A DNA stretch of 64,000 nucleotides, taken from the NCBI RefSeq assembly GCF_055900595.2, contig NZ_CM148325.1. The stretch is one strand, 5' to 3'. The position numbers and the translations under genes were made by a program. The notes under the pieces are model-generated. The model did not search any database, had not been told where the DNA came from, and saw nothing but the letters and a program-made list of their open reading frames with translations. This document shows positions 15,641 to 36,871 of the stretch, piece after piece; position 1 is the stretch's first letter, and every line of letters begins with the position of its first letter.

Positions 15641-15832
15641 CAAAGTTTTAACACATAAGAGATCTATCATAATTCAGTAAAATAACAAAAAAGAGGACTT
15701 TCTATGACTTATCAGAACTCCCTTTTTATTGTTATCCATAATTGTTCAGCCGACCAATTCTATAAATCTGACATTTGACACGCCTCCTTTGCCGTTCTGA
15801 TACGTTACTTTTCTTGCAGCTATCAAACCCAC

Positions 15833-15915
15833 AAATACAACGGGCGTGTTATATGCCCGTTCAGTACTTAATAGGTATAGCGTTAACATATTCTTGATAG
15901 CATGTACTGCATACC
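15833..15915 (-). other. icd 3'-end remnant (icdC-like att-site copy: terminator hairpin plus last codons of icd)
   Basis: acaacgggcgtgttatatgcccgtt ... aacatattcttgat closely matches the icd terminator and last codons at 22143..22214; the minus strand reads ...AIKNML* versus icd ...AIIKNM*. Confidence 0.7.
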
Positions 15916-16470
15916 TCCTGCCTTAGAATTATCTCCGGCTAACTCCACCAAACATGGCTGAACACAGCCAGATAAGAACGCTTGCGCGCATCTGGATATC
16001 ATACCGCTGCTGGAACTGTTTCTTAATCATCCTACCTTATTCGACCTATTCGTTACTGGCCATTATGAAGGACGCAAAGTAAGCGCTTTTTATGCGTTTT
16101 GGCTTAGTTATTATCACGTTACCTTAATATTATCAGGAACGAGTTAACGCTGCTCATAACGGTCAAACCGATACTATAAAGCCCAATAATTGAAACCTTT
16201 TCATCATGTCAGGAAGATAGTCATCCTTATGATCTTTATATAAAAAAGCCAACCATGGGGTTGGCAAAGTGGCACAAACCAGCATAAAAGCTATGCTTTG
16301 TTTACAAATCTTCTTTGAATTAAATATATATCGTCCTGACTAAACAGAACTATAACGGAATGAATTATTTAATCATATTACTAAATTTCATTTTGTTTAG
16401 CCTCTGTTGAGATCCCTTGTTTTAAATTTCATTTAGATAAAATTCTTAATTAAATCCTTGGGAGTCAATT

Positions 16471-16731
16471 ATGTCTATGCAAAGTCAAGGAATGAACTTT
16501 GAAATGAACCTATACGCATATTTGAATAAATATGATAGTCGGCTTTCAGAAGAAAAACTTGCAATTGATAAGGCAGTTAGAGATTTATATCTTTACAACG
16601 AACACGTGGATAACAAGAGCATTATACTGAAATTGCTTTCATTTTTATCATCTGCTGATGACATTGTTGAAAAAGATATTATCAGGAATGCTTTGGAAGT
16701 GGTGCTTATTTTTACATTAGACGATATTTAA
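16471..16731 (+). CDS. AriR/YmgB-family paralog (small connector-type regulator)
   Basis: 86 aa; ...DNKSIILKLLSFLSSADDIVEKDIIRNALEVVLIFTLDDI aligns with AriR ...[40 protein letters not shown] in this same window. Confidence 0.7.
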   Translation: MSMQSQGMNFEMNLYAYLNKYDSRLSEEKLAIDKAVRDLYLYNEHVDNKSIILKLLSFLSSADDIVEKDIIRNALEVVLIFTLDDI

Positions 16732-16966
16732 GTCATCTCAGGAGTTTTAATACACGAAGAGTGCCCGGATACTAGCGATTATATTCATATTTAATTATTA
16801 GTGCGGGGAAAGAGATTATGCATTGGCATATTTCTCTAACGTCCGTGATAGAAAAAAACTTTAAATATAAATAAAGAACAAACCACCTTTGCATTCAACC
16901 TCATCTGAGCTGAATATATTGATATTCTTTATCAACATCATTGGAACAGAAGAATAAGGCGAAGAA

Positions 16967-17290
16967 ATGAAGTGTATAGTAATTGATACTGTAATACAAC
17001 CTTCGTGTGGTATATATTTTTCAGTCATATGGAGCGATATGAAAATGATCATTTGGTATCGTTCAAATATATTTATCCCACCTGGCAGCATATTTACAGT
17101 TATTAAGTCAGGTATTATACTCGAGGATAAAGAATATCCGATCAGTATTTTTAACGTGGCGCTATTCAACAAAAACTTATGGAATTTAATCAAAAATAGT
17201 CAAGAGTGTCCTACAGAATCAAACAAAATTACGAATAAATGCCTGCATAAGAATTGCATTATGCAAATATGTCCACATGGTCTCAAGTAA
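16967..17290 (+). CDS. iraM: IraM-like anti-adaptor (RssB inhibitor family)
   Basis: 107 aa, MKCIVIDTVIQPSCGIYFSVIWSDMKMIIWY...SQECPTESNKITNKCLH...CPHGLK; length and Cys pattern match IraM; diverged from the K-12 sequence as I remember it. Confidence 0.7.
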   Translation: MKCIVIDTVIQPSCGIYFSVIWSDMKMIIWYRSNIFIPPGSIFTVIKSGIILEDKEYPISIFNVALFNKNLWNLIKNSQECPTESNKITNKCLHKNCIMQICPHGLK

Positions 17291-18024
17291 TGGGGGTTAT
17301 TTAACCTTCCCTATATGCTATAGATAAATCTACCAAAAACTGCCCCTTCGTAGAGGGGCGCTATGATTTTGTTTTATTTGAAGGCATGGTACTGAATGTA
17401 TTCGTTGAATCCAGATTCAACACCTGAAGCTGCACTAAACCCATAATACTTGTTTCTGGTTCCTCTACCGAGTGGTCAAACAATGATATGTATGTGACGT
17501 CAGAGTTTATATTTTTAGTGTTTAATGCTATTAATTTAACGTAGTTACCTATCTTTTTTCTACCTTCTGAACTAACCTTAGGTTTCAACGTAACCGGCAG
17601 GAGGGGCTATCCCCAATCTTAAATTTTGCTGCCCGATTTGCTCAAGCCAAAGTTTTAATTTTACAACCTATAAACCTGAGTTAAATCAACCTCATGGTGC
17701 TGTCTTTTCCCGCTGTGGAACAAGACTCACTGCAACATCTTGCATTCCTAAACTTCGCAGAAGGCGATGGGCAAAAACTGTACTGTAATGTTATTTCGAT
17801 GTCTCTTATGGTAAATAGGAGGCGTCGAGGCTAAGTGAGTAGCCTGCTTGCTTCTCAAGCCTGGATACTATCAGCATTCACGTCAGATGAAATGATGATA
17901 TTTCGCGTAAGAAAGAGGCATTTTTTTATCAACTTCACATCGGAGATGGTAATAATCCTATGGGTCCAGTCCATATGAGGGGGTCAACATACTATAAAAT
18001 TCACAATCATAAATTAACTATATA

Positions 18025-19482
18025 TCAAGAACGCCAAAAAAATCCTGAAAATAGTATAATAACAGGGTAAATTTCAAGTCGACCAAGAATCATAGCAATA
18101 CACATGAGATATTTTGCAATATCATTAAGAACACCGAATGAGGATGCGGTAGCCCCAAAACCCAGCCCCATATTATTAATGCATGCAGCGACTGTCGCAA
18201 ATGATGTAAGGAAATCATATCCCATACCGTTTAGCACCAGTATAAAAAACACTGTAAAGAAAGTATAAAGAAAAAAGAAACTCCATACAGACCTCATTAC
18301 GCGGTCTGTAACAATCTTCCCTCCTACATTTACACTAAGCAATGCTCTGGGATGAGAAAGCTGATTTATTTCGTGTTTACTTTGTTTAAAAAGTATAAGA
18401 AATCTAAGTGATTTAATTCCGCCGCACGTTGAGCCTATACATCCCCCAAAAAAACTTGACAGCAGCAAAAAAACTATCGTATGTGTGGGCCAGTTTGAAT
18501 AATCCTGCGTAGCTAAACCATTATCAGTGAGCATGGAGCTAGCAAGAAAAAACGAATGAACAACACTTCCAGTTAAGTCATACATACCTATATGCCAGAC
18601 CTGGAAAGAGGTAACAATGATAACACCTGAAGCTATTAACAAAAAGAAACGAAGTTCAACATCTCTGAGTAAGGGTTTTATTGTTTTCCTGCTTATAACA
18701 ACATACCAAAGAGTGAAGTTGAAAGCCGATAACAGAGAAAAAGAGCCCGCCACCAGTTCAATCAAATAATTATTGAAATAACCGATACTCTCACTATGAG
18801 TTGAAAAACCGCCAAGAGAAACTGTAGAAAGTCCATGACAAATAGCATCAAACAACGGCATTCCTGCAAGTCGATAACAAACAATACAGGCAATGCCTAA
18901 TAAAGAATAAGTTATCCAAAGTGTCCGCGACGTATCAGCCAAGCGTGGAGTCAGTTTGTCATCCTTAAATGGTCCTGGCATTTCTGACTGATAAAGTTTT
19001 GCACCACCAATACCCAATAATGGCAACACAGCAACTGCCAGAACAATAACCCCTAAACCGCCTATAAAATTTAATTGTGACCGGTAGAACAAATATGCCC
19101 GAGATAATGAACTGACATCATCAATTACTGTTGCTCCTGTTGTTGTTATTCCGGAAACCCCTTCAAACAGCGCGTCAGCAAACGTTAAATTAAGCTCTGA
19201 ATCAATCCATAATGGAAATGCGCTAATAATAGAAAATAAAATCCAAAACATTACAATTATAATAAACCCATCACGGGTGCGTAATTGAATGCCAGATTTT
19301 TTAGTGGTATACCACGCTCCGCCACCAATACAAAAAAATATAACAAAAGTAATAAAAAAAACGAACAAGCTTTTTTCTTTATAAAACAATGCTACAACCA
19401 TTGGTGGTAACATTGAAAGACTATAGAGCCAGACCAAGAACCCACACATATGAGTTACAACTCTTACATGAGATGTATTCAT
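18025..19482 (-). CDS. trkG: TrkH/TrkG-family K+ uptake membrane protein (TrkG-like)
   Basis: ORF 18025..19500; 485 aa from MNTSHVRVVTHMCGFLVWLYSL...; multi-TM with TrkH signatures FEGVSGITTTGATV, YQSEMPGPFKDDKL, GRLEIY. Confidence 0.85.
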   Translation of the reverse strand: MNTSHVRVVTHMCGFLVWLYSLSMLPPMVVALFYKEKSLFVFFITFVIFFCIGGGAWYTTKKSGIQLRTRDGFIIIVMFWILFSIISAFPLWIDSELNLTFADALFEGVSGITTTGATVIDDVSSLSRAYLFYRSQLNFIGGLGVIVLAVAVLPLLGIGGAKLYQSEMPGPFKDDKLTPRLADTSRTLWITYSLLGIACIVCYRLAGMPLFDAICHGLSTVSLGGFSTHSESIGYFNNYLIELVAGSFSLLSAFNFTLWYVVISRKTIKPLLRDVELRFFLLIASGVIIVTSFQVWHIGMYDLTGSVVHSFFLASSMLTDNGLATQDYSNWPTHTIVFLLLSSFFGGCIGSTCGGIKSLRFLILFKQSKHEINQLSHPRALLSVNVGGKIVTDRVMRSVWSFFFLYTFFTVFFILVLNGMGYDFLTSFATVAACINNMGLGFGATASSFGVLNDIAKYLMCIAMILGRLEIYPVIILFSGFFWRS

Positions 19483-20435
19483 ATCCAAATGTTCTTTCAA
19501 TTATAACCACCTTACTGCAATGTCATGATTATACTGTATAAATTTTAACTCTTCTTAGATCTTACTTCACTGGTCCTTATGAAACAATCAGCAAAATGAA
19601 TCTTATTATAACACTGTTCGGTTATGTATTGTTGAGCCTTCCCGCTGGGCCTGCATCATTACAAGTCGCTCCCTATGGGGCTTTGTCGAATAAATAATTT
19701 TTCGGTAAGTATCCCCCTGAGCAGGTTGTATCTTCAGGCAGTATGAACACTTTCTGGCATACCTACCTTCGTCATTATGTTCAGCGTATGCACCATGACC
19801 AAAGCCTCTGCAACCGGCCTATCATAATCTAGCAGCATCAGAGAACCTCAGAATAACTGTTTTACCCTGTACATTGCCGTTTCCGCTATTGAGCGACGAT
19901 TGTAATCTTTTGTCCATTTTCACCGGGAATTACCCTCGGTCAATCGCTGATACGCGACTGCACAGTTACGGTCGGCATACTCACCGGGCCAGTAACCCGC
20001 TCCTTTTTGGGGTGGGATGAGCGCGCTGATTTTCACACGGCGCAGCTGCTCGTAACAGAGCCGAGAGGCGTAAACTCCGTCTGCTGCTGTCCTGATTTTT
20101 TGATGGGTTTGCCGGATTAATCCGGCTACACCTCTACATCCGTTACGCTGAATGCTGAGGTCGCCCTTGGGAAGAAGGCATTGCTGACTTATACCAATCC
20201 GAAATCACCTCCTCGTGCAACCAGACAGGGAGGGGCCTCGGTTGATAAGAGCTCTGTTATTGATGTGCCAGTTGGTGATTCTAACTTTTGCTTTGTAACG
20301 GGACGAGCCGTGTTGGCAGATGATGTGTGGTCTGATCCTTAAACTCAGTAAAAGTACGATTTATTCAAAAAAGCCCCTCCACTATGATTTCGATTTAAGG
20401 GGCTGATGATTATGTAACGCGAATTTACCGGATCC

Positions 20436-21821
<1,386 letters not shown>

Positions 21822-22189
21822 TCAGGGGGGTTGATATTCCGGATCGTGCCGTGTTTGCCCACGGCTCCCCCTGGAGAGCTGCAGACCTGTTTATTTAACT
21901 CGCACAGCGCCGGGGCCTGTCAGCAAACAGGGAGCATAACCGTCGTGCCATTAAACGCCAGACGGGAGATCATTATTATTTTATTAATACAGATCCGTTG
22001 CATTCCGGTCTTTACCGCAGTTTAAAAGAAAAGAGAATAGGGACTTAGGCAGTAGAGCAGTCATTGGACAGACCACACTACCCCAAACTAGCAGGGGAGT
22101 TTTGATAAAATTTTGATAACCGTTAGCATGCTAACAAAAAAACAACGGGCGTGTTATACGCCCGTTTCAATATTTAACACATGTAGTGA

Positions 22190-23440
22190 TTACATATTCT
22201 TGATGATCGCGTCACCAAACTCTGAACATTTCAGCAGTTTAGCGCCTTCCATCAGACGCTCGAAGTCATAGGTTACGGTCTTCGCGTTAATCGCGCCTTC
22301 CATACCTTTAACAATCAGATCTGCGGCTTCAGTCCAGCCCATATGGCGTAACATCATCTCAGCGGAGAGGATGATAGAGCCTGGGTTAACTTTGTCCTGA
22401 CCAGCATACTTCGGCGCAGTACCGTGGGTGGCTTCAAACAGCGCGCATTCGTCACCGATGTTTGCGCCTGGGGCGATACCGATACCGCCAACCTGCGCTG
22501 CCAGAGCATCAGAAATGTAGTCACCGTTGAGGTTCATACAGGCGATAACGTCGTATTCAGCCGGACGCAGCAGGATCTGTTGCAGGAATGCGTCAGCAAT
22601 CACGTCTTTAATAACGATCTCTTTGCCGGTGTTCGGGTTTTTGACTTTCAGCCACGGGCCGCCGTCGATCAGTTCACCGCCAAACTCTTCACGCGCCAGC
22701 TGGTAACCCCAGTCTTTAAACGCGCCTTCGGTGAACTTCATGATGTTACCTTTGTGCACCAGGGTCACAGAGTCACGGTCGTTAGCAATTGCGTATTCGA
22801 TCGCGGCACGAACCAGACGTTTGGTGCCCTCTTCAGAACACGGCTTAATACCGATACCGCAATGTTCCGGGAAGCGAATTTTCTTCACACCCATCTCTTC
22901 ACGCAGGAATTTAATCACTTTCTCAGCGTCGGCAGAGTCAGCTTTCCATTCGATACCCGCATAAATATCTTCCGAGTTTTCACGGAAGATAACCATATCG
23001 GTCAGTTCAGGATGTTTAACCGGGCTTGGGGTGCCCTGATAGTAACGTACCGGACGCAGGCAGATGTAGAGATCCAGTTCCTGGCGCAGAGCTACGTTGA
23101 GAGAACGAATACCGCCGCCAACCGGAGTGGTCAGAGGGCCTTTAATGGCAACGCGATATTCACGAATCAGATCAAGGGTTTCAGCAGGCAGCCAGACGTC
23201 CTGACCATAAACCTGTGTGGATTTTTCACCGGTGTAAATTTCCATCCAGGAGATTTTACGCTCGCCTTTATAGGCTTTCTCGACTGCAGCGTCGACCACT
23301 TTCAGCATGGCTGGGGTTACATCTACACCGATTCCATCACCTTCAATGTAAGGGATAATCGGATTTTCAGGAACGTTGAGTTTGCCGTTTTGCAGGGTGA
23401 TCTTCTTGCCTTGTGCCGGAACAACTACTTTACTTTCCAT
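22190..23440 (-). CDS. icd: Isocitrate dehydrogenase (NADP)
   Basis: 416 aa, [45 protein letters not shown]...; ends ...FGDAIIKNM followed by a terminator hairpin. Confidence 0.97.
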
Positions 23441-23641: not shown

Positions 23642-23758
23642 ATGCAAAAAACTTCTTTTAGACCAAAGACAGTATTTTACCAGCCTTCAAATAAAATATT
23701 AAATATCAATTATTTACACCAGATTTTAAGCAATAACAAAACCACCAGAGATAACTAA
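23642..23758 (+). other. Short ORF (38 aa) that looks like a displaced rluE 5' end
   Basis: MQKTSFRPKTVFYQ... starts at the usual distance from the divergent icd promoter, after a tataat box; taccatg...cttcttttaga recurs at the rluE start near 26391..26438. Confidence 0.4.
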
Positions 23759-23890
23759 CAGGGTGCTATTTGGTCAAAATTTGACATTACTCGATTCAGC
23801 GACTAACTCACTTTGAGCACTATTGGGAAAATTATCAAAAGTCATGGTTGAAGCGACAAGCAACGAGTAAATTATGGCATCCACCCTTTT

Positions 23891-23971
23891 TGAGGTTCAC
23901 ATGAAACGCTTTGCACTGATAGCTGTGACACTCGTTGCCTTTACTGGTTCTGCTGCAACCGAAGAAATCAA
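23891..23971 (+). CDS. 26-codon ORF encoding a signal-peptide-like peptide
   Basis: gagg RBS 6 nt upstream; MKRFALIAVTLVAFTGSAATEEINFK*; too short to be a mature secreted protein, possibly truncated. Confidence 0.3.
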
Positions 23972-24014
23972 CTTCAAGTAACAGAAACACCATATAACAA
24001 TGGAGTGTTGAAAA

Positions 24015-24464
24015 ATGGATACTACCGAAGAACGCAATGGAACATATTTCTACAGAGGACACCCGAACCTGTCCAAAATAGAACTACTCAACGTCATATT
24101 CCTTGAAGAATTCTGTAAGGAATTGGGGATTGATTCGGTATCAGGTGCAGCAATCTTATCTGGTCAACCGTGGCTGGGTACAAGAGCGAAGCCGCAAGGG
24201 GCAACCCTGGGAACAAGTGTTGTCTCAAAGTATGCGCGTATACTGATGAGAGATGCACGCATGCCTTTTGGTATTTCTGTTCATACACCAGTGGGTGTAA
24301 GGATGCAGAAATCTAATAAGCTTGCTGCAATTATCGCTCGTTGGGTCCCGTGGATTGGTTGGGCTTCACTGTCGATGAGTCTTTACAGGGTTTCGACTCG
24401 TACCCAGGAAAAATACAATCTGATTGCCAAACCTCAAGACCGTATTAAGTGGACTTCCTTCTAA
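24015..24464 (+). CDS. Hypothetical 149-aa protein, first of an overlapping two-gene module
   Basis: ggag RBS about 9 nt upstream; in-frame stop immediately upstream; MDTTEERNGTYFYRGHPNLSKIELLNVIFLEEF... with a hydrophobic stretch LAAIIARWVPWIGWASLSMSLY. Confidence 0.5.
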   Translation: MDTTEERNGTYFYRGHPNLSKIELLNVIFLEEFCKELGIDSVSGAAILSGQPWLGTRAKPQGATLGTSVVSKYARILMRDARMPFGISVHTPVGVRMQKSNKLAAIIARWVPWIGWASLSMSLYRVSTRTQEKYNLIAKPQDRIKWTSF

Positions 24465-24799
24465 TGGCGACAACAATCACAGACGAAGTTTTAGCACTGT
24501 TCCGTGATGAGATTCCAGGTTATCAGGATGACCACGGGAAGGAAATTCCGTTAGAACTGGACTCTGATTTGTTCGACTATCCACGAGATGATTTAGAGGA
24601 CGCTATACGGAAATACAAAGAGAGGTTTGGGATTAACCTGGATAATCTGGACTGGTCTTTTTACCTTCCGTGGGAGTCTGCACCATTGCTTCAACGATGG
24701 TTCAAACTCAAGCGGGAAGAGGTAGAAACAACACGTTTACCGTTAACTGTACGGATGTTTGCAGAATCAGCAGAAGCGGGAAAATGGCTGTATCAGTAG
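24449..24799 (+). CDS. Hypothetical acidic 116-aa protein, overlaps the upstream gene by 16 bp
   Basis: MDFLLMATTITDEVLALFRDEIPGYQDDHGKEIPLELDSDLFDYPRDDLEDAIRKYKERFG...; acidic, overlapping partner typical of an immunity/antitoxin-like gene; possibly DUF1493-like (from memory). Confidence 0.5.
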   Translation: MDFLLMATTITDEVLALFRDEIPGYQDDHGKEIPLELDSDLFDYPRDDLEDAIRKYKERFGINLDNLDWSFYLPWESAPLLQRWFKLKREEVETTRLPLTVRMFAESAEAGKWLYQ

Positions 24800-24891
24800 A
24801 ATAAAAAAGAAGGCTGCGATGCCCCTCTTATTACTGCTGATGATGGTAGTGGTAAAGCATCATCCTGAACTTGAACAGTGAAGTGCTGTCA

Positions 24892-26161
<1,270 letters not shown>

Positions 26162-26381
26162 CCACTACAAAACACTATTTTTCATACCAGTATTTATTCA
26201 ATTCATCAATGTAAAATGTGTTCATTGGGCCATATTTATCACCATGCAGCCACACAACCGCTGCTCACTAACCCAGGTATTGATGAAACCGCGCTGAAGA
26301 GCCTGAACCCTGAACCTCTAACGAGTACCTTTAAAGTCCAATGCAATCCGACACTGTGCTACCCTCTGCGTATAGCTCTAT

Positions 26382-27032
26382 TTGGAATTTACCATGAAAT
26401 ACTTTAGCGATTCTAAATCTTCTTTTAGAAAAAAACAGGTTAGTCGACTAAACTCGCAACACTCAACTAAGCGAAAACCTGAAAACCAGCCCACGCGTGT
26501 GATCCTGTTCAATAAACCCTACGATGTTCTTCCGCAGTTCACCGATGAAGCCGGACGCAAAACATTAAAAGAATTCATCCCGGTTCAGGGAGTGTATGCG
26601 GCAGGTCGTCTCGACCGCGACAGCGAAGGGTTACTGGTGCTGACCAATAACGGCGCTTTGCAGGCGCGTTTAACCCAGCCGGGTAAACGTACCGGGAAAA
26701 TCTATTATGTACAGGTAGAAGGTATTCCCACGGAAGACGCCCTTGAAGCGTTGCGCAATGGCGTAACCTTAAATGATGGCCCTACCCTGCCCGCAGGTGC
26801 GGAGATGGTTGAGGAGCCGGAATGGTTATGGCCCCGTAATCCGCCAATTCGTGAACGAAAAAGTATTCCCACCAGCTGGCTTAAGATCACCTTATATGAA
26901 GGACGTAATCGCCAGGTGCGCCGCATGACCGCCCATGTTGGTTTTCCCACGCTGCGACTGATTCGCTATGCGATGGGTGATTACTCTTTGGATAATCTTG
27001 CCAATGGCGAATGGCGAGAAGCGACAGATTAA
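26382..27032 (+). CDS. rluE: 23S rRNA pseudouridine synthase RluE
   Basis: 216 aa; ...[35 protein letters not shown]...[17 protein letters not shown]...; start could instead be the ATG at 26394. Confidence 0.9.
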
Positions 27033-35734: not shown

Positions 35735-36871
35735 ATGGGACAGAGTAAAAAATTGAATAAACAACCGAGTTCGCTTTCACCGCTGGTGCAATTGGCGGGA
35801 ATTCGCAAATGCTTTGATGGTAAAGAGGTCATTCCCCAGCTGGATCTGACTATCAACAATGGCGAGTTCCTCACGCTGCTTGGCCCTTCTGGCTGCGGTA
35901 AAACAACCGTTCTTCGCCTGATTGCAGGTCTGGAAACTGTTGATTCCGGACGCATCATGCTGGATAACGAGGACATCACCCTCGTTCCGGCGGAAAACCG
36001 CTATGTGAACACTGTTTTCCAAAGCTACGCACTTTTCCCCCACATGACCGTGTTCGAAAATGTGGCCTTTGGGTTGCGCATGCAAAAAACCCCCGCTGCT
36101 GAAATTACGCCCCGCGTGATGGAAGCCCTGCGGATGGTGCAGCTGGAAACCTTCGCTCAACGTAAACCGCATCAGCTTTCTGGTGGTCAACAGCAACGCG
36201 TCGCCATTGCTCGCGCGGTGGTTAACAAGCCTCGTCTGTTGTTGCTGGATGAGTCGCTCTCAGCGCTGGATTACAAACTGCGCAAGCAAATGCAGAACGA
36301 GCTGAAAGCGTTACAGCGTAAGCTTGGCATTACATTCGTGTTCGTAACTCACGACCAGGAAGAAGCACTCACCATGTCGGACAGGATTGTGGTGATGCGC
36401 GATGGTCGCATTGAGCAAGACGGCACGCCGCGTGAAATCTACGAAGAGCCGAAAAACCTGTTTGTTGCTGGGTTTATCGGTGAAATCAATATGTTTAATG
36501 CCACGGTCATCGAACGTCTCGACGAGCAGCGCGTACGCGCCAACGTTGAAGGCCGCGAGTGTAATATCTACGTTAACTTCGGCGTTGAACCGGGGCAAAA
36601 ACTGCATGTTCTGCTGCGCCCGGAAGACTTACGTGTTGAAGAGATTAACGACGACAACCACGCCGAAGGGCTGATTGGTTACGTTCGCGAGCGTAATTAC
36701 AAAGGCATGACGCTGGAGTCGGTTGTTGAGCTGGAAAATGGCAAGATGGTGATGGTCAGCGAATTCTTCAATGAAGACGATCCTGACTTTGACCACTCTC
36801 TCGACCAAAAAATGGCCATTAATTGGGTAGAAAGCTGGGAGGTCGTACTGGCTGATGAAGAACACAAGTAA
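35735..36871 (+). CDS. potA: Spermidine/putrescine ABC transporter ATPase PotA
   Basis: 378 aa; Walker [13 protein letters not shown] signature LSGGQQQR. Confidence 0.97.

What the first reader, a model, noticed from the sequence alone, without database searches (positions are those of the whole stretch)
18025..19482. trkG-like K+ transporter gene outside a Rac prophage context
TrkG is the prophage-encoded TrkH paralog in K-12. Here a full-length copy sits in the icd islet with no phage genes around it, suggesting the islet derives from a lambdoid prophage that decayed down to this gene.
Basis: partly seen in the sequence, partly recalled or inferred. Interest (0 to 1): 0.35.

Follow-up and report, generated by a model that had tools for sequence, protein, structure and literature searches.

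The report
Prophage-relic trkG fixed beside icd
An intact second potassium-uptake gene (trkG), normally carried by the Rac prophage, here sits in a small decayed-prophage remnant next to icd that is specific to the cryptic clade I lineage of E. coli; it is an ordinary but tidy case of a phage cargo gene kept by its host.

Summary
Window 18025-19482 (minus strand) is an intact 485-aa TrkG. It is 96% identical to K-12 Rac TrkG and 40% identical to core TrkH, and it branches as sister to Rac TrkG.

It did not come from Rac recently. Its DNA is only about 90.5% identical to every Rac allele sampled (dS 0.46, dN/dS 0.04), with no intermediate alleles.

It lies in a 4.8-kb islet (about 17328-22135) between iraM and the icd terminator. 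No intact phage gene remains, but two highly significant phage scars do:
- the last ~65 bp of the Rz/spanin lysis gene directly upstream of trkG, in the same order as in Rac-type phages;
- an e14/phage-21-type left attachment module (icd last 165 bp, terminator and arm) next to icd.

An IS5-family transposase fragment lies between the scars.

The only other intact gene is a 455-aa orphan. It is the published PCR marker of Escherichia cryptic clade I, and both published primers match it perfectly. Exactly 18 of 5,426 complete E. coli genomes carry the islet. The one examined in full has core trkH and an empty Rac site.

This is a new member of a known kind and of modest interest.

The parts
18025..19482 (-). 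trkG, intact 485-aa K+-translocating subunit of the Trk system (islet allele)
   Evidence: ORF. Pfam TrkH E=5.6e-143. 96% aa identity to K-12 TrkG and 40% to TrkH. dN/dS 0.04 against the Rac allele. Pore loops, gating loop and D121/E231/D327 are intact.
19483..19609 (-). trkG upstream/promoter region, homologous to the Rz-trkG intergenic region of Rac
   Evidence: Alignment to Rac L002 13646-13782, including a conserved TATAAT-like box. It lies inside the 17975-19673 homology block.
19610..19673 (-). remnant of the 3' end of a lambdoid Rz (i-spanin) lysis gene, with its stop codon deleted
   Evidence: Aligns to positions 227-292 of the 300-bp rzpR with a 2-bp gap. Score 86 against a shuffle mean of 15.6, z=32.7. 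RefSeq annotations under the same match read 'lysis protein'.
17975..18024 (-). 50 bp downstream of trkG still homologous to Rac; homology ends at 17975
   Evidence: The same end point is seen in every viral contig that extends that far.
17328..17974 (.). unassigned spacer between trkG and iraM, with a bidirectional terminator-like hairpin at 17341-17360
   Evidence: Found only in the 18 islet genomes. No phage match. Only short ORFs. Hairpin reported.
19734..20123 (-). IS5-family transposase pseudogene fragment at the junction between the Rz remnant and the orphan gene
   Evidence: RefSeq annotation of the identical sequence reads 'transposase, internal stop, missing N-terminus'. 80% nt identity to IS5-family transposases.
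20436..21812 (-). orphan repeat-containing gene (455 aa from the RefSeq start at 21803); the published cryptic clade I PCR marker
   Evidence: Both primers from PMC10100065 match perfectly at 20849-20868 and 20469-20488. No Pfam, NCBIfam or PADLOC family. Escherichia-only family. Internal repeats and a paralogue at fadH-ygjK.
22099..22143 (-). arm sequence of an e14/phage-21-type attachment site (phage DNA just beyond the icd terminator)
   Evidence: 40 of 42 bases identical to the e14 left end; z=27.5, against z=0.5 for the native flank control. An exact 28-mer occurs at the ends of three viral contigs, and the one examined (L027) encodes an integrase 87% identical to IntE.
22144..22166 (-). 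icd intrinsic terminator hairpin
22190..22354 (-). last 165 bp of icd, the phage-exchangeable att segment; here a third allele type ending ...IKNM*
   Evidence: dS to K-12 jumps from 0.19 in the first 1086 bp to 0.66 in this segment. In L012, homology behind an e14-like prophage starts exactly at 22354. Viral contigs L026-L028 carry this segment.
15830..15898 (-). fossil copy of the icd end plus terminator next to ycgX, marking the far edge of the variable ycgX-icd interval
   Evidence: 81% identical to 22135-22204, z=24.7. Orthologous to a K-12 fossil near ymgL.
16967..17290 (+). iraM allele (80% nt identity to K-12), part of the same lineage-specific haplotype
   Evidence: NCBIfam IraM 142.7 bits.
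16471..16731 (+). extra YmgB/AriR-family gene, lineage-specific
   Evidence: Pfam YmgB E=8.5e-14. Found only in the same 18 genomes.

Best explanation
**What the gene does.** The gene is a functional TrkG, the membrane pore subunit of the Trk K+ uptake system. By analogy with K-12 TrkG it should:
- form a dimer gated by the cytoplasmic TrkA ring;
- take up K+ in a Na+-activated manner, alongside the core TrkH;
- be transcribed from its own AT-rich promoter, which came with it from the phage and is probably partly repressed by H-NS.

**How it got here.** A lambdoid phage of the e14/phage-21 integration type inserted into the 3' end of icd in an ancestor of Escherichia cryptic clade I. That phage carried trkG as a late-region cargo gene (moron) just after the Rz lysis gene, as Rac-type phages do. 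Two deletions then removed the rest of the prophage.
1. One deletion, probably tied to the IS5-family element whose fragment remains, removed integrase through most of Rz.
2. The other removed everything from 50 bp beyond trkG to the right attachment site.

What is left is the left attachment module, an orphan gene, the IS fragment, the Rz stub and trkG. The immobile remnant was then inherited vertically, with trkG kept by purifying selection.

**Shown:** gene identity and integrity, allele divergence, both scars, distribution, and the clade I marker. **Inferred:** a single donor prophage, the order of the deletions, transport properties and regulation.
For: **Identity**
- TrkG, not TrkH.
- the closest solved structures are TrkH 4J9U and 3PJZ.
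- all four pore-loop motifs, the gating loop and D121/E231/D327 are unchanged.

**Selection and age**
- dS 0.46, dN 0.019, dN/dS 0.04; the 138 differences are spread evenly along the gene and 105 are at third codon positions.
- core genes between the window and K-12 have dS 0.09-0.19.

**Two alleles only**
- 18 genomes at >=99% identity and 1,533 records at 90-95% (90.4-91.0% in the rows listed), with none at 95-99%.
- all 41 viral-contig copies are Rac-type and 88.9-89.8% identical to the islet.

**Phage scars**
- Rz stub, z=32.7.
- attL arm, z=27.5, control z=0.5.
- the same module sits at the ends of e14-family viral contigs, and the one examined encodes an IntE-like integrase (87%).
- dS jump at the last 165 bp of icd.
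- gene order S-R-Rz-trkG-ParB-terminase in a near-complete Rac-type phage.
- (L012): an e14-like prophage is stacked upstream, with its junction at 22354.

**Lineage**
- the same count of 18 of 5,426 genomes for every part of the islet.
- carriers share 97.8-100% identity in core flanks, against 93-96.5% to K-12.
- two carriers are published clade I strains, and the clade I marker primers match inside the islet.

**Function of K-12 TrkG**
- PMC9898762.
Against: - No attR or second icd 3' copy remains on the iraM side of the 4.8-kb islet, so the element cannot be delimited by a repeat pair.
- The orphan gene has about 49% GC against 37% for trkG. It has no phage homologue. Its paralogue sits alone in a non-phage site. 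The attL-proximal part and the Rz-trkG part could therefore come from different events.
- No phage or prophage carrying the islet allele was found in IMG/VR, in the phage collection or in GTDB representatives.
- Expression and transport were not measured.
- S330, which contacts D327 in the K-12 model, is N here, so Na+ dependence could differ.
Confidence: 0.75

Rival explanations
1. The islet is a composite of separate events. The attL module and the orphan gene would be the leftover of one icd-integrating e14-type element. The Rz stub plus trkG would be a fragment of a different lambdoid phage, brought in later by IS5-family-mediated or illegitimate recombination.
For: An IS5-family fragment lies exactly between the two parts. 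GC content differs sharply, about 49% against 37%. The orphan gene family is not phage-associated and has a solitary paralogue at fadH-ygjK. The sampled e14-family contigs with this arm are not among the trkG-carrying contigs.
Against: It needs more events than a single prophage with two deletions. The order and orientation (attL, cargo... Rz, trkG, all co-directional with icd) are what one icd-integrated lambdoid prophage would give. Only one IS fragment is present, so this is not a composite transposon.
Confidence: 0.2
2. The gene moved recently within a genome from a resident Rac prophage to the icd region.
For: The homology block with Rac includes Rz-trkG flanks, and an IS fragment is adjacent.
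Against: The islet allele is about 9.5% diverged in DNA from every Rac allele sampled, with dS 0.46 and differences spread evenly, and there are no intermediates. The carrier examined has an empty Rac site, and no carrier has a second trkG.
Confidence: 0.02
3. It is a native chromosomal TrkH-family paralogue of this lineage, not phage-derived, like the TrkG homologue of E. fergusonii.
For: TrkG-clade genes are chromosomal in several Enterobacterales. The E. fergusonii copy (79% aa identity) sits between a porin gene and a DJ-1/PfpI-family gene with no phage genes nearby.
Against: The Rz stub and Rac-type promoter lie directly upstream. An attL arm is adjacent to icd. GC content is 37%. The protein is sister to the phage-borne Rac allele, and the next relative, from E. 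albertii, sits among lambdoid prophage genes.
Confidence: 0.03

Closest known systems
TrkG of E. coli K-12 (b1363, Rac cryptic prophage)
   Same: Same length (485 aa) and 96% aa identity. The upstream region and the end of Rz are shared. GC is about 37-38%. Pore loops, gating loop and the Na+-related acidic residues are identical.
   Different: The locus differs (icd-iraM rather than ttcA). No prophage surrounds it. DNA is 9.5% diverged (dS 0.46). There are 17 substitutions, including A329S and S330N next to D327. It was found only in the cryptic clade I carriers, whereas the Rac allele is in about 28% of complete E. coli genomes.
TrkH of E. coli (b3849) and Vibrio parahaemolyticus TrkH (PDB 3PJZ, 4J9U)
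   Same: Same Pfam family and same fold family, with full-length alignment.
   Different: Only 40% identity. It scores 448 bits against the 866-bit cutoff of the TrkH equivalog model. Core trkH is present separately in the carrier genome.
e14 cryptic prophage and phage 21 / NC-SV integration at icd
   Same: The attachment module is the same kind: surrogate icd 3' end, terminator and arm. The islet sits where the prophage interior would begin (PMC12803456).
   Different: Integrase, excisionase, regulatory and structural genes are all gone and attR is missing. The retained cargo (orphan gene, trkG) is unrelated to e14 cargo (ymfD, ymfE, lit, mcrA).
Cryptic clade I specific genomic island / PCR marker gene (PMC10100065)
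   Same: The marker gene is the islet's 455-aa orphan: 1368 bp, with both primers matching perfectly.
   Different: That paper does not mention trkG or icd. trkG would not score as clade-specific at its 80% clustering threshold, because it is 96% identical to Rac TrkG.

Membership tests
TrkH/TrkG family of K+ transporter subunits (Pfam PF02386, TIGR00933) | Full-length match to the family profile above the curated cutoff | tested here: met
   PF02386 477.5 bits (cutoff 27), covering residues 40-483. TIGR00933 406 bits (cutoff 331).
TrkH/TrkG family of K+ transporter subunits (Pfam PF02386, TIGR00933) | Four pore loops with the conserved selectivity-filter glycines, and the glycine-rich intramembrane gating loop | tested here: met
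   The motifs TTTGAT, SLGGFS, TDNGLA, NNMGLG and GGCIGSTCGGIK are present at the same positions as in K-12 TrkG.
TrkG clade (as opposed to core TrkH) | Groups with K-12 TrkG rather than TrkH in a tree, and fails the TrkH equivalog model | tested here: met
   NJ tree: sister to Rac TrkG. 96% against 40% identity. NF008020 gives 448 bits against a cutoff of 866, the same as K-12 TrkG (450), while TrkH scores 1076.
TrkG clade (as opposed to core TrkH) | [quoted passage not shown] | not testable with these tools
   D121, E231 and D327 are conserved, but the D327 contact S330 is N. Transport assays are needed.
TrkG clade (as opposed to core TrkH) | Works with TrkA (and SapD) present in the same genome | not tested
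   trkA and sapD lie outside the window and were not looked up. Both are core E. coli genes by general knowledge.
Rac prophage gene | Located in a prophage integrated at ttcA, with Rac flanking genes (rzpR upstream, ynaK downstream) | tested here: not met
   The gene lies between icd and iraM. Only a 65-bp Rz stub is shared upstream, and homology ends 50 bp downstream. The ttcA site is empty in the carrier examined.
Remnant of an icd-integrating (e14/phage-21-type) lambdoid prophage | Phage-derived attL: surrogate icd 3' end, terminator and arm | tested here: met
   z=27.5; dS jump at the last 165 bp.
Remnant of an icd-integrating (e14/phage-21-type) lambdoid prophage | attR, that is a displaced native icd 3' fragment (icdC), at the far end | tested here: not met
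   There is no second copy of the 165-bp segment between icd and iraM. Only a 70-bp fossil of the icd end plus terminator lies farther out, at 15830-15898.
Remnant of an icd-integrating (e14/phage-21-type) lambdoid prophage | Integrase or other phage genes | tested here: not met
   No integrase or structural gene is present. The only phage-gene trace is the Rz fragment.
Remnant of an icd-integrating (e14/phage-21-type) lambdoid prophage | Remaining lambdoid gene fragments in the prophage order and orientation | tested here: met
   The Rz stub followed by trkG is co-directional with icd, matching S-R-Rz-trkG in ON470595.1.

The most novel reading that the evidence does not exclude
**Accretion zone.** The ycgX-icd interval may be a zone where successive icd-targeting phages have stacked their remnants. 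Each layer would be marked by a fossil icd-end/terminator copy, and the host would have domesticated cargo from several layers (iraM, a YmgB-like gene, the clade marker, trkG).

**Convergent capture of trkG.** On this reading, trkG was captured twice independently in Escherichia, at ttcA through Rac and at icd in clade I. In clade I it became a fixed, lineage-wide second K+ uptake system. The A329S/S330N changes beside D327 could then give it altered Na+ activation, and so a clade-specific K+/Na+ physiology.
Probability: 0.25. Interest if true: 0.45.

Novelty: new member of a known kind. Interest (0 to 1): 0.3.

Why it matters
**Selection on the gene itself.** trkG is usually dismissed as a passenger of the defective Rac prophage. 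Here a second, anciently diverged allele has outlived its own prophage at a different site, is under strong purifying selection, and is present in all 18 marker-positive complete genomes. That supports the view that TrkG is selected for its own sake.

**A natural variant for testing.** The islet allele is a natural variant (A329S/S330N) for testing the proposed role of D327 in Na+ activation.

**Context for the clade I marker.** The result also gives the published clade I diagnostic marker a genomic setting: it lies in a prophage relic at the icd attachment site.

**Limits.** No new mechanism or family is involved.

Tried and rejected
**Searches for a donor phage (all negative)**
- An islet-allele-specific 30-mer found nothing in IMG/VR or in GTDB species representatives.
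- A 22-mer shared by all Escherichia trkG alleles found nothing in GTDB representatives. That collection is therefore uninformative here.
- The same 22-mer found 41 IMG/VR contigs, all Rac-type.
- The phage collection holds only Rac-type TrkG. It has no match to the orphan protein or to the spacer 17328-17974.

**Family scans of the orphan gene**
- Pfam, NCBIfam and PADLOC gave nothing usable. The 'pipB2 domains' mentioned in PMC10100065 were not reproduced.

**RNA scans**
- Rfam gave only a sub-threshold STnc150 hit. No tRNA gene was found.

**Other points**
- The promoter scan was no better than shuffled sequence, so the promoter inference rests on homology to the Rac upstream region only.
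- I first suspected a local introgression around icd. I rejected this because core genes 8-10 kb away are equally unusual and the carriers include published clade I strains.
- An ungapped comparison with the partial E. albertii gene was out of register and is not used.
- 'Spread' listings do not show rank 2, so I quote only the identity bands, not a 'next best' value.
- Loci fetched by accession were often not copied to the script machine. I pasted the sequences in by hand.

Full report
**1. The observation**

- The window has an ORF at 18025..19500 on the minus strand.
- From the ATG at 19482 it encodes 485 aa beginning MNTSHVRV, the same length and start as K-12 TrkG.
- It matches Pfam TrkH (PF02386) at E=5.6e-143 over residues 40-483.
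- A megablast of 16000-21000 against 5,426 complete E. coli genomes finds the whole segment in 18 genomes. There RefSeq annotates it as trkG, flanked by iraM and a YmgB/AriR-family gene on one side and by a transposase pseudogene, a hypothetical protein and icd on the other.

**2. TrkG or TrkH**

- The protein is 468/485 (96%) identical to K-12 Rac TrkG and 40% identical to K-12 TrkH. K-12 TrkG and TrkH are themselves 41% identical.
- Against the NCBIfam TrkH equivalog model it scores 448 bits, below the cutoff of 866. K-12 TrkG scores 450 and real TrkH scores 1076. It passes the broader TrkH-family model.
- A database search shows a TrkG clade across Enterobacterales: E. fergusonii 79%, Citrobacter 78%, Enterobacter about 71%, Serratia about 65%.
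- In an NJ tree rooted on TrkH, the window protein is sister to Rac TrkG. A partial E. albertii sequence comes next.

**3. Not a recent copy of the Rac gene**

- At the DNA level the gene differs from K-12 trkG at 138 of 1458 positions (90.5% identity). Of these, 105 are at third codon positions, and they are spread evenly along the gene.
- dS is 0.46, dN is 0.019 and dN/dS is 0.04.
- Core genes of the window differ from K-12 by dS 0.09-0.19. The two trkG alleles are therefore roughly three times older than the host lineages' split, if rates are similar.
- E. coli genomes hold only two allele classes. 18 genomes are at least 99% identical to the window. 1,533 records fall in the 90-95% band (90.4-91.0% in the rows listed). 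None falls in the 95-99% band.
- All 41 IMG/VR contigs with trkG are Rac-type. They are 96.7-100% identical to K-12 and 88.9-89.8% identical to the window.
- The ten close phage-record copies (96.5-96.9% aa identity) are about as far from the window protein as K-12 Rac TrkG is.
- The 17 amino-acid changes are mostly conservative. The four pore-loop motifs, the glycine-rich gating loop and D121/E231/D327 are unchanged. However A329S and S330N sit next to D327. S330 is one of the residues reported to contact D327, the residue implicated in Na+ activation (PMC9898762).

**4.

- In NZ_CP098223.1 (99.8-100% identical to the window over the five segments searched separately) core trkH sits at pepQ-yigZ-trkH-hemG.
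- In the same genome ttcA is directly followed by uspF, so there is no Rac prophage.
- The record has a single trkG.
- None of the 18 carriers shows a second place for a query containing trkG.

**5. Anatomy of the islet**

Relative to the K-12 order icdC-terminator-iraM, the window has 4.8 kb of extra DNA between 17328 and 22135. Reading from icd, all on the minus strand:

1. The last 165 bp of icd (22190-22354), the terminator (22144-22166) and about 45 bp (22099-22143) that match the DNA just inside the left end of e14.
   - 40 of 42 bases are identical, with z=27.5 against shuffles.
   - The K-12 native flank used as a control gives z=0.5.
   - An exact 28-mer from this arm occurs at the ends of three viral contigs, whose homology to the window spans 22099 to about 22354.
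   - In the contig examined (L027) the next genes are an integrase 87% identical to e14 IntE and an excisionase.
   - Within icd, dS to K-12 jumps from 0.19 in the first 1086 bp to 0.66 in the last 165 bp. This is the known signature of replacement by a phage-borne surrogate end.
2. An orphan gene at 20436-21812 (455 aa from the RefSeq start).
3. An IS5-family transposase fragment at 19734-20123.
4. A 64-bp stub of the 3' end of the Rz/spanin gene at 19610-19673. It aligns to rzpR positions 227-292 of 300 with z=32.7, and its stop codon is deleted.
5. The Rac-type trkG upstream region, then trkG.
6. 50 bp of Rac-like downstream sequence. Homology ends at 17975 in every phage contig that reaches that far.
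7. About 650 bp of unassigned DNA ending in a bidirectional terminator hairpin next to iraM.

In a near-complete Rac-type phage the order is Q, tRNAs, S, R, Rz, trkG, ParB, terminase. The Rz stub plus trkG is therefore a piece of a lambdoid late region. Its orientation matches that of an icd-integrated prophage with its integrase next to attL.

**6. History**

- The simplest account is one icd-integrating lambdoid prophage that carried trkG after Rz and was reduced by two deletions.
- The first deletion ran from integrase to Rz, next to the IS fragment. The second ran from just past trkG through attR.
- I give this account about 0.75.
- The main rival, at about 0.2, is a composite origin. Three observations favour it: the orphan gene is about 49% GC against 37% for trkG; it has no phage relatives; and a diverged paralogue sits alone between fadH and ygjK in other E. 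coli.
- A recent hop from Rac, and a native non-phage paralogue, are both effectively excluded (sections 3 and 5).

**7. A stacking zone**

- A fossil copy of the icd end plus terminator lies at 15830-15898 beside ycgX. It is 81% identical to the active copy (z=24.7) and has an orthologue in K-12 near ymgL.
- In another carrier (L012) an e14-like prophage (baseplate, tail fibre, invertase, McrA-like HNH) is integrated upstream of the islet. Homology to the window resumes exactly at 22354, leaving the window-type 165 bp as an icdC fragment.
- So the window's icd end still works as an attachment site, and new prophages push older remnants outward.
- The whole ycgX-icd interval (15641-22189) occurs only in the same 18 genomes. 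It includes an iraM allele 80% identical to K-12 and an extra YmgB-family gene.

**8. Which lineage**

- The carriers are unusual throughout the window, not only at the islet.
- Only 8-10 genomes are at least 99% identical to the window for purB-phoQ, icd or bluF-ycgX.
- Ten carriers share 97.8-100% identity with the window in core flanks, against 93-96.5% for K-12.
- Two carriers, EC42405 and 2013C-4282, are complete-genome strains of Escherichia cryptic clade I in PMC10100065.
- That paper's single clade-specific marker is a 1368-bp gene of unknown function on a 'putative genomic island'. It was found in 452 of 453 clade I strains and in none of the other strains analysed.
- The RefSeq CDS beside trkG is exactly 1368 bp, and both published primers match it perfectly in the window at 20849-20868 and 20469-20488. 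I take it to be that marker gene.
- The window therefore comes from a clade I strain. The islet is that island. In complete genomes the marker and the islet trkG co-occur 18 of 18 times.
- The paper does not mention trkG or icd.
- The exact TrkG protein is indexed in 1,067 blocks of the assembly collection. Every context read has the 455-aa gene upstream of trkG and iraM downstream; L010 has an IS insertion and L012 an e14-like prophage upstream.

**9. Function (inferred)**

- By 96% identity to the characterised K-12 protein, this should be the pore subunit of a TrkA-gated K+ uptake system. It should show Na+-activated K+ uptake and some Na+ uptake, be partly repressed by H-NS, and operate beside TrkH (PMC9898762).
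- The closest solved structures are TrkH 3PJZ and 4J9U.
- Transport, expression and the effect of A329S/S330N were not and could not be tested here.

**10. Verdict**

- It is a new member of a known kind: a prophage cargo gene that outlived its prophage.
- It has some added value. It is an independent, old, selected trkG allele fixed in a subspecies-level lineage and physically linked to that lineage's diagnostic marker.
- Interest is about 0.3.

Noticed in passing
window 20436-21812 (-): The orphan gene beside trkG is the published PCR marker of Escherichia cryptic clade I; both primers match perfectly. The protein has about 165-aa internal repeats and belongs to an Escherichia-only family of 23 clusters with no Pfam, NCBIfam or PADLOC hit. 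The 'pipB2 domains' mentioned in the paper were not reproduced.
   Followed up: partly
L005 7450-8991 (NZ_CP176488.1, between fadH and ygjK): A 513-aa paralogue of the orphan gene (60% identity over the first ~290 aa, with an extra repeat) sits as a single-gene insert between fadH and ygjK. Its upstream region is 80% identical to window 21813-22035. About 240 E. coli genomes show the short diagnostic match.
   Followed up: partly
window 21977-22176 (+): A sub-threshold Rfam match to the Salmonella Hfq-binding sRNA STnc150 (37 bits, gathering score 60, E=4e-5). It lies antisense to icd and covers the terminator and the attL arm. It may only reflect shared phage-derived sequence downstream of icd.
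   Followed up: no
window 15830-15898 and K-12 L024 ~36445-36534: Fossil copies of the icd end plus terminator (the K-12 copy also with arm-like sequence) lie next to ycgX/ymgL. This suggests that iraM and its neighbours lie within stacked remnants of older icd-integrating phages.
   Followed up: partly
window 16471-16731 (+) and 16967-17290 (+): An extra YmgB/AriR-family gene and an iraM allele only 80% identical in DNA to K-12. Both occur only in the same 18 genomes.
   Followed up: partly
window 23663-26414: A 2.75-kb insert between the icd promoter side and rluE, absent from K-12. It carries STM2901-family and DUF1493 genes and an IS3-family element.
   Followed up: no
window ~3002-7678 (-): An intact 4.7-kb AIDA-repeat autotransporter gene lies where K-12 has the ycgH pseudogene fragments.
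   Followed up: no
L012 1-7300 (GCA_015292225.1): In another clade I strain an e14-like prophage is integrated in icd directly upstream of the islet, leaving the window-type 165 bp as an icdC fragment.
   Followed up: yes
L010 7705-9506 (CP043414.1, strain EC42405): An IS21-family element (annotated IS100 istA/istB) is inserted between the marker gene and trkG, at about window 19907-19911. trkG is left intact.
   Followed up: no
L020 (E. fergusonii, GCA_052538815.1) 10001-11458: A TrkG-clade gene (79% aa identity) sits in plain chromosomal context between porin genes and a DJ-1/PfpI-family gene. By my reading of the neighbouring genes this is the yedS-hchA region, with no phage genes nearby.
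   Followed up: no
L001 41951-45001 (NZ_CP098223.1): The closest complete genome has phage tail genes after potB, where the window is collinear with K-12 (potC, potD, ...). The window therefore comes from a different clade I strain than that record.
   Followed up: no
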